DNA from: a virus
Taxonomy: Duplodnaviria > Heunggongvirae > Uroviricota > Caudoviricetes
Length of the DNA stretch: 64,000 bases
IMG/VR virus record: IMGVR_UViG_2718218136_000001
Strand: one strand, 5' to 3'
Shown here: positions 32,823-33,887 of the stretch, in pieces
How positions within the stretch are numbered: position 1 is the stretch's first letter
Layout: each line of letters opens with the position of its first letter
Notes under the pieces: model-generated
What the model was told of the DNA's origin: nothing
The model's input: only the letters and a program-made list of their open reading frames with translations
Database searches by the model: none
Translations under genes and position numbers: made by a program

Positions 32823-33362
32823 CTACCACCAACTGCTAGCTTTCTTCTCTCTAGCTTTTCCTTCGCTTTGCAGTAAATCTTTACTTCCTGTAGAAATATT
32901 TCTATTTGCATCAGCCTCAGACTGAATTACATCTGTCTTAGCTGCTCTCTCCTTCAACTCCTGCTCTATAAAATCGTTTTCTCGCTGGACACGAGCCGCT
33001 TTTGCTTGCAGTTCGAGTTTCATGCTTTCGAGTTGCAGCTTGCGAAGCTCATCCTCATAAGCTTGATCTCGCTTCTTGTCATTTGCTAGCTCGGCTTCTC
33101 GTTTCGCTCTACGTTCATTTTCTGCAGCAACACGCTGTTTTTCGCGTGCAGCAGCGGCAGATGCTGCTTTTTCTCTTCTAATACGTTCAGCTTGTTCTTG
33201 TTGGCGAATAAGTTCTTTTCTGGCATCCTCAGCTTGCTGCTCTTTAGCTCGCCCTTCATTTTCCGCTTGAGCAATAGCAGCAATTTGACTTTGCAACGAG
33301 TTAGCCAAGGCAGTGCCTACACTAAACGTAGAAAAGATTAGAAATAAAATAATTTTATTCAT
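32823..33362 (-). CDS. secreted coiled-coil protein (179 aa) with N-terminal signal peptide
   Basis: MNKIILFLIFSTFSVGTALA signal-like N-terminus; E/R/K/A/Q-rich body. Confidence 0.5.
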   Translation of the reverse strand: MNKIILFLIFSTFSVGTALANSLQSQIAAIAQAENEGRAKEQQAEDARKELIRQQEQAERIRREKAASAAAAREKQRVAAENERRAKREAELANDKKRDQAYEDELRKLQLESMKLELQAKAARVQRENDFIEQELKERAAKTDVIQSEADANRNISTGSKDLLQSEGKAREKKASSWW

Positions 33363-33365
33363 AAA

Positions 33366-33887
33366 TTATTTCTTTTCTGGACAAGTAGCATTTGGCTGAA
33401 TTCGAGTTTCATTATCTTTAGTTGAAATAAGCACAGCAAGCCCCGTTGTAAACTGGCATGCTTTACCAACTTGAGTTGAAGTGAACACCTTAGTTCCTTC
33501 TTTATAAGTCAGTGAAACACCTTCAACAATTGTTTTATCACTAACCAAAGAACCAGCCGCTGCACCAAGAGCCGCACCACCAGTACCGCCAGCTACAGCA
33601 CCCAGTGTCGATGTGCCTTTAACATTATAACCGGCAACGCCCCCAGCAACAGCTCCCAGTACCGCACCAAATGTCTGTGCCGCTTCTTTATTAGCTTTAT
33701 TATCAACTTTCACTTTAGCTGGAAGCACAGAGATAATATTGACTGTCTTTGTTTCCTGCTTCGAATTCAATTGAGCGGTATCATAAACATCGGCAGCATA
33801 ATCAGCACCGCTAGATTGACACCCAGAAAGAAGAATTGCAGATACAACAAGAGCGCATAAAGTATACTTTTTAGACATAAGAATCAT
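33366..33887 (-). CDS. lipoprotein with glycine-zipper segment (SlyB/Pcp-like, 173 aa)
   Basis: Lipobox LLSGC; GAVAGGVAG...GAVAGGTGGAALGAAAG repeat. Confidence 0.55.
   Translation of the reverse strand: MILMSKKYTLCALVVSAILLSGCQSSGADYAADVYDTAQLNSKQETKTVNIISVLPAKVKVDNKANKEAAQTFGAVLGAVAGGVAGYNVKGTSTLGAVAGGTGGAALGAAAGSLVSDKTIVEGVSLTYKEGTKVFTSTQVGKACQFTTGLAVLISTKDNETRIQPNATCPEKK

What the first reader, a model, noticed from the sequence alone, without database searches (positions are those of the whole stretch)
32823..33887. Secreted coiled-coil protein plus glycine-zipper lipoprotein pair next to the immunity region
Two adjacent minus-strand genes encode envelope-targeted proteins: one has a signal peptide and a charged coiled coil, the other a lipobox and a SlyB-like glycine zipper. 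They sit between the tail genes and the immunity leader, with an AT-rich promoter-like spacer at 33890-34200. Envelope proteins in this position are candidates for superinfection exclusion or lysogenic conversion.
Basis: inference. Interest (0 to 1): 0.4.

Follow-up and report, generated by a model that had tools for sequence, protein, structure and literature searches.

The report
Phage-borne yfgH–yfgI envelope gene pair
A P1/P7-type plasmid prophage carries its own diverged copy of the host's yfgH–yfgI outer-membrane operon exactly where phage P1 keeps its sim exclusion genes; the genes were already annotated in P7, and their role in the phage has never been tested.

Summary
Window 33366-33887(-) encodes a 173-aa lipoprotein with lipobox LLSGC, two invariant four-glycine zippers and a SlyB fold. 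Window 32823-33362(-) encodes a 179-aa secreted protein of family DUF5384, predicted as one long helix. They are P7 Upf50.5 and Upf50.0 (100% and 99.4% identical). They are also paralogues of the core E. coli operon yfgH-yfgI (67% and 47% aa identity).

The 1376-bp cassette (32795-34170) replaces simC-simB-simA of P1. Its junctions lie at the late promoter LPsit and at the C1 operator before c4. At least six alternative cassettes use this slot, and all encode secreted or membrane proteins. Related pairs also sit at the ends of two myovirus prophages, on a Salmonella phage-plasmid and on a Vibrio plasmid.

The genes are under purifying selection, have no late promoter, and are absent from P1, so they are not virion parts. 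Host YfgH is reported to stabilise the outer membrane.

My best reading is a prophage accessory module that remodels the outer membrane. Its payoff is probably Sim-like exclusion of incoming phage, or envelope robustness for the lysogen. That function is inferred, not shown. The AT-rich spacer is real, but it contains no consensus promoter.

Interest is modest: a new, phage-borne member of a known family.

The parts
33366..33887 (-). yfgH-like outer-membrane lipoprotein gene (P7 upf50.5), 173 aa; the alternative start at 33878 gives 170 aa. It has lipobox LLSG|C, two four-glycine zippers (residues 74-86 and 100-112) and a C-terminal beta domain with conserved Cys144/Cys169.
   Evidence: ORF. 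It is 100% identical to P7 Upf50.5 and 67% identical to K-12-lineage YfgH.
32823..33362 (-). yfgI-like secreted protein gene (P7 upf50.0, DUF5384), 179 aa. It has a cleavable signal peptide (…TALA|NS) followed by about 158 residues predicted as one continuous helix. The N-terminal motif SLQxQ..A.AQAE and the C-terminal half are conserved, the ER/K-rich middle is variable, and the protein ends in an aromatic SWW.
   Evidence: ORF. Pfam DUF5384 E=5e-43. It is 99.4% identical to P7 Upf50.0 and 47% identical to YfgI. AF2 pLDDT 87. Conservation profile.
32795..34170 (.). Replaceable 1376-bp cassette (GC 0.40, flanks 0.48) that occupies the slot holding simC-simB-simA in P1.
   Evidence: blastn of the window against P1 (L002) and pLR-25_1 (L003) shows homology ending at 32794 and resuming at 34171 in both.
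33888..34170 (-). AT-rich upstream spacer (GC 0.32) with no ORF of 30 aa or more. It is presumed to hold the cassette's own promoter.
   Evidence: There is no consensus sigma-70 hit on the minus strand and no P1 late-promoter box.
33912..33940 (-). Weak candidate promoter TTGTTT-17 nt-TAACTT with TGn immediately upstream of the -10. The pattern is shared with the 77%-identical allele in pLR-25_1 (TTGTTT-17-TAGATT). This is inference only.
   Evidence: Read from the sequence and from the alignment of upstream regions. It falls below the thresholds of the scans.
32774..32798 (-). Late promoter LPsit (palindromic box TGTCACAAATGACA plus -10 TAGAAT) for the tail operon. It lies downstream of the pair and marks the left cassette junction.
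   Evidence: P7 and P1 annotation mapped onto the window. Exact pattern match.
34169..34185 (+). C1 repressor operator (Op51/Oc4 equivalent), CCTGCTCTAATAAATTT. The right cassette junction falls at its left edge.
   Evidence: 2 mismatches to consensus; 8 sites in the window against 0.28 expected. P7 annotation.
34246..34452 (+). immI leader: the a1b1 targets (34246-34298) and C4 antisense RNA (34367-34452). It is followed by icd (34500-34721) and ant1 (34718-35752).
   Evidence: Rfam RF03163 at 55 bits and RF01695 at 68 bits. ORFs.
32176..32742 (-). pmgC/tubA, the first gene of the late tail operon (conserved backbone, not part of the cassette).

Best explanation
The two genes are a phage-borne, anciently diverged copy of the enterobacterial envelope operon yfgH-yfgI. 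They sit as a non-essential accessory cassette in the 'sim slot' of a P1/P7-type plasmid prophage.

Shown:
- The first product has a lipobox with Gln at +2 (which predicts outer-membrane sorting), two glycine-zipper helices forming a hairpin, and the SlyB fold.
- The second product has a cleavable signal peptide and is predicted as one helix of about 158 residues (about 24 nm). Both ends are conserved and the charged middle is variable.
- The genes are 3 nt apart and stay paired from Vibrio to Escherichia.

Inferred mechanism:
- The pair is transcribed from its own weak promoter in the AT-rich spacer, independently of the late tail promoter.
- The lipoprotein oligomerises through its glycine zippers into SlyB/YfgH-type rings in the outer membrane. 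These rings enclose or stabilise outer-membrane proteins and lipid patches.
- The helical partner links these assemblies to the periplasm.

Inferred payoff: the remodelled outer membrane protects the lysogen. I consider the most likely selected effect to be a block on adsorption or DNA entry by incoming phage, the job Sim does in P1. Greater envelope robustness is a closely related benefit that may occur alongside it.
For: Identity:
- The cassette is 99% identical to P7, RCS47, SJ46 and JL22, and P7 annotates it as upf50.0/upf50.5.
- The chromosomal yfgH-yfgI pair is found in 5419 of 5426 E. coli genomes at about 69% nt identity. Amino-acid identity is 67% and 47%.

Fold:
- SlyB is the top match by sequence profile (E=1e-9, full length) and by Foldseek (E=1e-6).
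- The partner is modelled as a single long helix with pLDDT 87.

Host function: a preprint reports that YfgH stabilises the outer membrane, interacts with many outer-membrane proteins and is modelled as SlyB-like rings (10.64898/2025.12.22.696046).

Accessory, not structural:
- P1 has the same tail genes but carries simABC instead.
- The sim genes are non-essential in P1 (PMC10695390).
- The slot is a recognised variable region of P1-like phage-plasmids (PMC9603915).
- The late promoter lies downstream of the pair and no late box lies upstream.

Envelope theme of the slot: SimA, SimB and SimC and the proteins of four further cassettes all carry signal peptides or transmembrane segments.

Recurrent temperate-phage cargo:
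- The pair sits at the tail-fibre end of myovirus prophages at two different chromosomal sites.
- It sits on a Salmonella phage-plasmid of about 102 kb that carries tail-fibre, endolysin and Rep genes.
- A second P1-like allele is 84%/80% identical in amino acids.

Functional constraint:
- dN/dS is 0.04-0.17, and synonymous sites are saturated against the host copy.
- 162 plasmids carry a copy at least 99% identical.
- The cassette is present in 181 of about 508 E. coli genomes that carry P1-like elements.

Precedent: TraT is an oligomeric outer-membrane lipoprotein of chromosomal origin that plasmids co-opted repeatedly for surface exclusion (PMC11733297).
Against: - No experiment links this pair to phage exclusion, and no paper mentions upf50.0, upf50.5 or DUF5384.
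- PADLOC has no match.
- There is no consensus promoter or terminator, so expression in the lysogen is unproven.
- Strong purifying selection and near-clonal conservation are not the pattern of a fast arms-race exclusion protein. Variation concentrates only in the hairpin tip.
- The pair, or yfgH alone, also sits on non-phage plasmids. That fits a general envelope benefit as well as, or better than, exclusion.
- From my own knowledge, Sim confers exclusion mainly when cloned at high copy, so positional analogy is weak evidence.
- The lipoprotein monomer model has low confidence (pLDDT 61; the zipper helices are below 50). Ring formation and any YfgH-YfgI contact were not modelled.
Confidence: 0.45

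Rival explanations
1. The pair is purely a host-fitness (lysogenic conversion) module. It supplies an extra dose or a variant of YfgH-YfgI that stabilises the outer membrane of the lysogen against detergents, bile, chelators, antibiotics or serum. It has no effect on incoming phages.
For: - Homology is the strongest predictor of function: identity to YfgH/YfgI is full-length at 67%/47%, and the reported YfgH phenotype is outer-membrane stabilisation, with overexpression rescuing biogenesis defects.
- Selection is purifying.
- The genes also occur on non-phage plasmids. One is a small ColE1-type plasmid where yfgH-like sits beside a phosphoethanolamine transferase, an enzyme that modifies the outer membrane. 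Another is a Vibrio conjugative-type plasmid.
- The position at prophage ends is typical of morons.
Against: - Nearly every E. coli host already has yfgH-yfgI, so a second copy needs a reason.
- The cassette is allelic with an exclusion locus and with other small secreted proteins.
- In other prophages it abuts tail-fibre genes, where receptor-blocking lipoproteins are often found (my own knowledge of cor and llp).
Confidence: 0.33
2. The pair has a lytic-cycle envelope function. It is made after induction to hold the outer membrane together until lysis, to tune lysis timing, or to guard against lysis-from-without. A spanin-like role is one version, because an outer-membrane lipoprotein plus a periplasmic helical protein resembles Rz1/Rz.
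For: - The pair is on the same strand as the late tail operon and immediately upstream of it.
- The outer-membrane lipoprotein plus long periplasmic helix architecture superficially resembles two-component spanins.
- There is a weak PHROG hit to an Rz-like spanin (E=0.038), though only over the signal/lipobox region.
Against: - There is no late promoter upstream.
- The helical protein has a cleavable AxA signal peptide, not the inner-membrane anchor of i-spanins.
- Gene order is lipoprotein first.
- The orthologues are core chromosomal genes outside prophages.
- P1 lyses normally without them.
- On other elements the pair sits away from lysis genes.
Confidence: 0.08
3. The pair encodes virion or tail-assembly components, as some automatic annotations imply ('minor tail protein' and 'tail tip protein' in phage phi456).
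For: - The pair is adjacent to the tail tube and baseplate genes.
- The phi456 record carries these labels.
Against: - P1 and many P1-like elements have the same tail genes at 96-99% identity but carry unrelated cassettes here.
- The proteins carry Sec and lipoprotein export signals.
- Host chromosomal orthologues exist.
- The pair lies outside the late transcription unit.
Confidence: 0.02

Closest known systems
E. coli YfgH-YfgI (b2505-b2506; Salmonella Typhi SrgI-SrgL)
   Same: - Gene order, sizes (172/179 aa) and tight spacing are the same.
- Identity is 67% and 47% over the full length.
- The lipobox, both glycine zippers, the Cys pair and the DUF5384 C-terminal motif are shared.
   Different: - This copy is carried on a plasmid prophage, not at the guaA-pdeF locus.
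- Synonymous sites are saturated, so it is an old separate lineage and not a recent pick-up from E. coli.
- The upstream region is unrelated to the host one, so its regulation is probably different. The Typhi orthologues respond to SdiA/AHL, whereas the E. coli yfgHI reporter did not (PMC11619404).
- The hairpin tip and the middle of the YfgI-like helix differ most.
SlyB (PhoPQ-regulated outer-membrane lipoprotein; PDB 7OJF/7OJG rings around BamA and lipid patches)
   Same: - It is a lipoprotein with a two-helix glycine-zipper hairpin plus a small beta domain.
- The homology is significant over the full length.
- It offers a plausible shared ring-forming mechanism.
   Different: - Identity is only about 24%.
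- SlyB has no DUF5384 partner gene.
- Genetic suppressors of yfgH and slyB mutants differ (clsA against the Mla pathway).
- Ring formation by this protein has not been tested.
Phage P1 Sim (simA-simB-simC superimmunity / superinfection exclusion)
   Same: - It occupies the same slot with the same junctions and the same strand.
- Its products are also exported via signal peptides.
- It is non-essential for phage growth.
   Different: - There is no sequence similarity.
- Sim has three genes rather than two, and none is a lipoprotein.
- The Sim phenotype is experimentally known, whereas this pair has none.
TraT (IncF surface-exclusion and serum-resistance lipoprotein; decameric, PDB 9FS5/9FSM/9E2V)
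   Same: - It is an oligomeric outer-membrane lipoprotein of chromosomal ancestry that mobile elements co-opted repeatedly (PMC11733297).
- 59 of 61 YfgH-family members give weak Pfam TraT hits over the hairpin region.
- TraT chains rank 2-4 in Foldseek.
   Different: - The Pfam score is below the curated cut-off (23.1 against 31 bits).
- The Foldseek values are E 0.15-0.36 with TM at most 0.27.
- The PDB profile search gave no TraT hit at E up to 10.
- TraT is about 225 aa with an extracellular ring domain that is absent here.
Receptor-blocking phage lipoproteins (Cor of phi80/N15, Llp of T5) and lambda Bor
   Same: They are small prophage-expressed outer-membrane lipoproteins, often encoded next to tail or tail-fibre genes, that give exclusion or serum resistance (my own knowledge; Cor is covered in PMC11436027).
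   Different: - There is no homology. The only PHROG Cor hit has E=0.022 and covers only the signal/lipobox region.
- Those proteins are single genes without a glycine zipper or a helical partner.

Membership tests
YfgH / SlyB-type glycine-zipper outer-membrane lipoproteins | Signal peptide ending in a lipobox with an invariant Cys, and no Asp at +2 (outer-membrane sorting). | tested here: met
   The motif is LLSG|CQ. The Cys is invariant in 61 homologues and +2 is Gln in most. Cleavage, lipidation and localisation are predicted, not shown.
YfgH / SlyB-type glycine-zipper outer-membrane lipoproteins | Two consecutive GxxxG-type glycine-zipper helices forming a hairpin. | tested here: met
   G74/78/82/86 and G100/104/108/112 are invariant or at least 90% conserved. 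AF2 models helices at 64-87 and 94-112. Pfam Gly-zipper 2TM scores 18.2 bits, below the 24.2 cut-off for this sequence, but matches 54 of 61 members at E up to 0.01.
YfgH / SlyB-type glycine-zipper outer-membrane lipoproteins | Full-length sequence and fold homology to SlyB/YfgH, including the beta domain. | tested here: met
   Profile against PDB: SlyB E=1.1e-9, covering residues 10-163 of the query and 7-154 of SlyB. Foldseek: 7ojf_A E=1.1e-6, TM 0.64. BLASTP against YfgH: 67% identity, E=6e-73.
YfgH / SlyB-type glycine-zipper outer-membrane lipoproteins | Oligomerises into rings in the outer membrane that enclose outer-membrane proteins or lipid. | not testable with these tools
   Only monomer prediction was available, and the zipper helices have pLDDT below 50 in the monomer. 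Multimer modelling or cryo-EM is needed.
YfgI / DUF5384 | Match to Pfam PF17358 above the gathering score. | tested here: met
   147 bits against a cut-off of 25, E=5.3e-43, covering profile positions 4-145 of 145.
YfgI / DUF5384 | Encoded immediately downstream of a yfgH-type lipoprotein gene. | tested here: met
   The gap is 3 nt here. The same order is seen in K-12-lineage J53, pLR-25_1, the Vibrio plasmid, two prophages and the Salmonella phage-plasmid.
P1 Sim superinfection-exclusion system | Sequence homology to SimA, SimB or SimC. | tested here: not met
   BLASTP of both proteins against SimC gives E=0.044 or worse over short segments. SimA and SimB were not compared by BLASTP.
P1 Sim superinfection-exclusion system | Same genomic slot between LPsit and the C1 operator of the immI operon. 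| tested here: met
   Junctions at 32794/32795 and 34170/34171 correspond to P1 (locus L002) 3487/3488 and 5000/5001.
P1 Sim superinfection-exclusion system | Confers exclusion of superinfecting P1-type phage when expressed. | not testable with these tools
   This needs plating, adsorption and DNA-entry assays.
TraT surface-exclusion lipoproteins | Pfam PF05818 match above the gathering score, with the TraT fold. | tested here: not met
   23.1 bits against a cut-off of 31. Foldseek gives E 0.15-0.36 and TM at most 0.27. The PDB profile search found no TraT chain at E up to 10.
Two-component spanins (Rz/Rz1 type) | An inner-membrane-anchored coiled-coil i-spanin plus a small outer-membrane lipoprotein o-spanin within a lysis cassette. 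| tested here: not met
   The helical protein has a cleavable AxA signal peptide and no membrane anchor. No holin or endolysin gene is adjacent. The orthologues are core chromosomal genes. The PHROG spanin hit (E=0.038) covers only the signal region.
Known anti-phage defence systems (PADLOC-DB v2) | Match to any defence-protein model. | tested here: not met
   Both proteins gave zero hits at E up to 1.

The most novel reading that the evidence does not exclude
Temperate phages of at least three unrelated types (P1-like phage-plasmids, phiP27-like myovirus prophages and a Salmonella phage-plasmid) have repeatedly taken up a host outer-membrane maintenance operon. They use it as an envelope-level exclusion device interchangeable with Sim. 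In this reading, a SlyB-type lipoprotein ring in the outer membrane is coupled to a helix of about 24 nm, long enough to cross the periplasm. The assembly would cage phage receptors or block tail-tube penetration and DNA passage. Capture may have happened by imprecise excision of prophages that integrate right beside yfgI, as TL-2011b-like prophages do today. The weak but consistent TraT similarity would then point to one ancient superfamily of ring-forming outer-membrane lipoproteins that mobile elements reuse for exclusion.
Probability: 0.25. Interest if true: 0.6.

Novelty: new member of a known kind. Interest (0 to 1): 0.35.

Why it matters
P1-like phage-plasmids are common in E. coli: about 9% of complete genomes here carry one, and a third of those have this cassette. 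They also spread resistance genes. If the cassette excludes other phages or hardens the outer membrane, it would affect phage-therapy host range, P1 transduction into wild strains, and the fitness of lysogens in the gut.

It would also give host YfgH-YfgI a clear biological read-out. YfgI still has no mechanism. A phage that keeps both genes together argues that they work as a unit.

If the cassette turns out to be only a spare copy of a housekeeping envelope operon, it is an ordinary moron.

Tried and rejected
- Virion or tail-component reading: rejected. P1 has the same tail genes with a different cassette, the proteins are exported, and the late promoter lies downstream.
- 'DNA methyltransferase' (RefSeq and phrog_1277 label): rejected as a propagated misannotation. 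There is no methyltransferase domain and the protein is a lipoprotein.
- TraT membership: rejected on thresholds. The consistent weak hit is recorded but unresolved.
- Spanin, Cor and Llp: the only hits cover the signal peptide region.
- Known defence systems: no PADLOC hit for the pair. The neighbouring cassettes are also unmatched, apart from a weak DUF559 nuclease-domain hit.
- Shared regulatory motif between the host and phage upstream regions: none found. Only the two P1-like alleles align.
- Consensus promoter or terminator in the cassette: none on the right strand. The inverted repeat after the second gene overlaps LPsit and has no T-run.
- IMG/VR scan for more phage types: 19 of 80 loci are P1-like. 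About 59 are TL-2011b-like proviruses whose predicted ends include the host yfgI-yfgH flank, so they are boundary artefacts and not cargo.
- PDB search with the DUF5384 profile: nothing significant. I did not run a fold search on the single-helix model because a lone helix gives meaningless matches.
- The P1 genome paper (PMC523184) is not held, so statements on Sim biology rest on the GenBank annotation, a citation and my own knowledge.
- Diversifying selection: not seen, with dN/dS 0.04-0.17.
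Full report
WHAT THE WINDOW IS

The region around the finding is 99% identical to the P1-like plasmid prophages JL22, phi456, RCS47, SJ46 and P7. In the P7 record the two ORFs are annotated as upf50.5 ('outer membrane lipoprotein of unknown function') and upf50.0 ('membrane protein of unknown function'). Both carry signal-peptide features. The window proteins are 100% and 99.4% identical to them.

Flanking landmarks were mapped and checked independently:
- The tail gene pmgC/tubA lies at 32176-32742.
- The late promoter LPsit lies at 32774-32798 (exact match).
- A C1 operator lies at 34169-34185.
- The c4 a1b1 targets and C4 antisense RNA lie at 34246-34298 and 34367-34452 (Rfam).
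- Then come icd, ant1/2, kilA and repL.

CHECK OF THE OBSERVATION

ORF 33366-33887(-) begins MILMSKKYTLCALVVSAILLSG|CQ.
- The lipobox Cys is invariant in a 61-sequence alignment, and +2 is almost always Gln. That predicts outer-membrane sorting.
- Gly74/78/82/86 and Gly104/108 are invariant. Gly100 and Gly112 are at least 90% conserved. Together they make two four-glycine zippers.
- Cys144 and Cys169 in the C-terminal beta domain are also invariant.
- A family profile finds E. coli SlyB over its whole length (E=1.1e-9).
- The AF2 model has mean pLDDT 61. The beta domain scores 73-82, and the zipper helices score below 50, as expected for a monomer taken out of an oligomer.
- Its best PDB match is SlyB 7ojf_A (E=1.1e-6, TM 0.64).
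- The true start may be the second ATG at 33878, because homologues are 170-172 aa.

ORF 32823-33362(-) starts 3 nt after the first gene's stop.
- Its signal peptide ends TALA|NS.
- It matches Pfam DUF5384 at E=5e-43.
- It is 42% charged.
- It is modelled as one helix over residues 3-178 at pLDDT 87.
- Across 57 homologues, the short N-terminal motif (SLQxQ..A.AQAE) and the C-terminal 85 residues (DKKRDQ.YEDELR … TDVIQSEADANRN … SWW/GWF) are conserved. The ER/K-rich middle varies in sequence and length.
- 'Coiled coil' therefore fits only the C-terminal half. The N-terminal half (11% hydrophobic) looks like a single-helix spacer.
- At 1.5 Å per residue, 158 residues would be about 24 nm. From my own knowledge that is similar to the width of the periplasm.

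The spacer 33888-34170 is 32% GC, against 48% in the flanks. No consensus sigma-70 promoter was found on the minus strand, and there is no P1 late-promoter box. A weak TTGTTT-17-TAACTT element with an upstream TGn (33940-33912) is conserved in the related allele of pLR-25_1. It is only a candidate.

WHAT IT IS

A sensitive DNA search shows that 5419 of 5426 complete E. coli genomes carry a chromosomal relative at about 69% nt identity, annotated yfgH-yfgI.
- In the K-12-lineage strain J53 these genes lie between guaA and yfgG/pdeF, in the same order and at the same sizes.
- Amino-acid identity is 67% for YfgH and 47% for YfgI.
- Synonymous sites are saturated between phage and host copies. Where it can be measured, dN/dS is 0.04-0.17.
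- The phage pair is therefore an old, constrained paralogous lineage and not a recent pick-up.

A SWAPPABLE SLOT

Compared with P1, homology stops at window 32794 and resumes at 34171. Between these points P1 has simC-simB-simA (1513 bp) and the window has the 1376-bp yfgHI-like cassette.
- A third P1-like plasmid (pLR-25_1) uses the same junctions. It carries a 77%-nt-identical version of the pair plus a membrane-anchored DUF559 nuclease-domain gene.
- Sampling of PLSDB found further occupants: a SimA-like 215-aa protein with a secreted 158-aa protein; a three-TM 116-aa protein with a secreted 158-aa protein plus either a TM DUF4760 protein or a TM SH3 protein; and simB-simC alone.
- Every product has a signal peptide or a transmembrane segment.
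- The slot is 'variable region 4' of P1-like phage-plasmids in the literature (PMC9603915).
- The sim genes are dispensable for P1 growth (PMC10695390).
- Among complete E. coli genomes, 508 carry the adjacent tub-pmgC DNA. Of these genomes, 181 carry this cassette at 99% or more, and 251 carry some sim DNA, 127 of them nearly full length.

THE PAIR ON OTHER MOBILE ELEMENTS

- Relatives 71-73% identical sit, still paired, at the tail-fibre end of myovirus prophages inserted at two different chromosomal sites: next to yecD/aspS, and next to the tor/cls region. Part of the tail module resembles phiP27.
- A 61%-identical pair lies beside the Rep gene on a Salmonella contig of about 102 kb that also encodes tail-fibre, endolysin-like and exonuclease VIII proteins. 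This is a phage-plasmid unrelated to P1 at the DNA level.
- A Vibrio MPF_F plasmid carries a 51%-identical pair. Small ColE1-type plasmids carry yfgH-like alone, next to a phosphoethanolamine transferase.
- By contrast, the 'phage' hit in TL-2011b and about 59 of 80 IMG/VR loci are host flanks. TL-2011b-like prophages integrate directly beside yfgI, and the records include yfgI-yfgH-yfgG-pdeF. This is an annotation trap. It also suggests a plausible route for capture by imprecise excision, which is my inference.

HOW IT PROBABLY WORKS

Shown:
- The products carry export signals.
- The lipoprotein has the SlyB fold and conserved zippers.
- The two genes are tightly and persistently paired.
- The cassette is accessory and lies outside the late transcription unit.

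From the literature:
- A preprint reports that deleting host yfgH sensitises cells to SDS/EDTA and destabilises outer-membrane proteins.
- It also reports that overexpression rescues outer-membrane biogenesis knock-downs, that YfgH co-purifies with many outer-membrane proteins, and that it is modelled as SlyB-like rings (10.64898/2025.12.22.696046).
- SlyB rings around BamA have been solved (PDB 7OJF).
- The Salmonella Typhi orthologues srgIL are induced by SdiA/AHL (PMC11619404).

Inferred:
- The phage copy is expressed from its own promoter.
- It forms similar rings, with the helical partner as a periplasmic link.
- It changes outer-membrane organisation in the lysogen.

Why a phage keeps the pair is the open point. 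The sim-slot position, the envelope theme of all the alternative cassettes, the tail-fibre neighbourhood in other prophages, and the TraT precedent all favour exclusion of incoming phage. TraT is a chromosomal ring-forming outer-membrane lipoprotein repeatedly co-opted for exclusion (PMC11733297). Strong purifying selection, near-clonal conservation, presence on non-phage plasmids and simple homology favour a general envelope-robustness benefit.

I put about 0.45 on the combined 'prophage-expressed outer-membrane remodelling, with exclusion as the main payoff' reading. I put 0.33 on pure host-fitness conversion, 0.08 on a lytic-cycle or spanin-like role, and 0.02 on a virion role.

COMPARISON WITH KNOWN FAMILIES

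- The lipoprotein is a member of the YfgH/SlyB glycine-zipper lipoprotein family, and its partner is a member of DUF5384/YfgI (all sequence-level tests met).
- It is not homologous to SimC; it shares only the slot.
- It is not a TraT family member by Pfam or fold thresholds. Even so, 59 of 61 family members give weak TraT hits over the hairpin region, which leaves a possible remote relationship unresolved.
- It has no PADLOC match.
- Spanin and Cor resemblances are confined to the signal/lipobox region.

NOVELTY AND VERDICT

The genes have been annotated in P7 for about twenty years and sit in hundreds of sequenced plasmids. Full-text searches of the held library for the names upf50.0, upf50.5 and DUF5384, and the paper searches, turned up no paper that discusses the phage-borne pair, its equivalence to the sim slot or its recurrence in other temperate phages. 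It is best filed as a new, phage-borne member of a known family, with a testable but unproven exclusion or conversion role. Interest is modest at 0.35. It would rise to about 0.6 if the pair proved to be a Sim-equivalent exclusion device built from a co-opted host membrane-maintenance operon.

Noticed in passing
window 33366-33887; RefSeq records NC_050152, NC_042128, NC_031129, NC_019445; phrog_1277: The lipoprotein is labelled 'DNA methyltransferase' in RefSeq phage records and in PHROGs. Phage phi456 labels the pair 'minor tail protein' and 'tail tip protein'. Neither label has any domain support, so they look like propagated misannotations.
   Followed up: yes
L018 (TL-2011b JQ011317 38421-44784); IMG/VR loci L037-L098: The TL-2011b record and about 59 of 80 IMG/VR 'viral' loci end in the host genes yfgI-yfgH-yfgG-pdeF. 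A prophage family integrates immediately beside yfgI, and provirus boundaries include host DNA. This inflates the apparent phage distribution of the family and suggests a route for capture by imprecise excision.
   Followed up: partly
L003 (pLR-25_1) 4889-6148; L014, L015, L016, L017: The sim slot of P1-like phage-plasmids holds at least six alternative cassettes with identical junctions, and all encode secreted or membrane proteins. They include a TM-anchored DUF559 nuclease-domain protein, a TM DUF4760 protein, a TM SH3 protein and a family of secreted 158-aa proteins. None is characterised.
   Followed up: partly
L004 (pYLMB10c, NZ_CP073991) 3118-5669: A 7.5-kb mobilisable ColE1-type plasmid carries a lone yfgH-like gene (about 75% aa identity) next to a 421-aa phosphoethanolamine transferase and IS1. 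This pairs an outer-membrane stabiliser with a lipid A-modifying enzyme.
   Followed up: no
L005 (Vibrio parahaemolyticus pVPSD2016-3) 5010-6070: A 51%-identical yfgH/DUF5384 pair sits on a Vibrio MPF_F plasmid beside a RelE/ParE-HigA toxin-antitoxin pair and an outer-membrane transport protein. The pairing therefore holds well beyond Enterobacterales.
   Followed up: no
window 34169-34185 and 32785-32798: Both cassette junctions abut protein-binding sites: the left edge of the C1 operator and the palindromic box of LPsit. The first two bases of the operator (CC instead of AT) belong to the cassette.
   Followed up: partly
window 482, 2700, 10772, 34169, 35830, 49866, 54411, 54422: The window has eight matches to the C1 operator consensus within 3 mismatches, against 0.28 expected by chance. 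This includes an overlapping divergent pair at 54411-54438.
   Followed up: no
alignment A1 (61 YfgH-family proteins): 59 of 61 members give sub-threshold hits to Pfam TraT (best E=2.5e-7) over the hairpin and the start of the beta domain. TraT decamers rank 2-4 in the Foldseek PDB search. A remote SlyB/YfgH-TraT relationship is possible but unresolved.
   Followed up: partly
window 61461-61485 (-): There is a second match to the LPsit-type late-promoter pattern with 3 mismatches. It may be another late promoter.
   Followed up: no
window 34718-35752: ant1 is 344 aa here, whereas the P7 ant1 CDS (51402-52448) is 1047 nt, i.e. 348 codons. Within the 7.4-kb region, the ant/icd part also varies between otherwise P7-type plasmids (multi-piece matches).
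   Followed up: no
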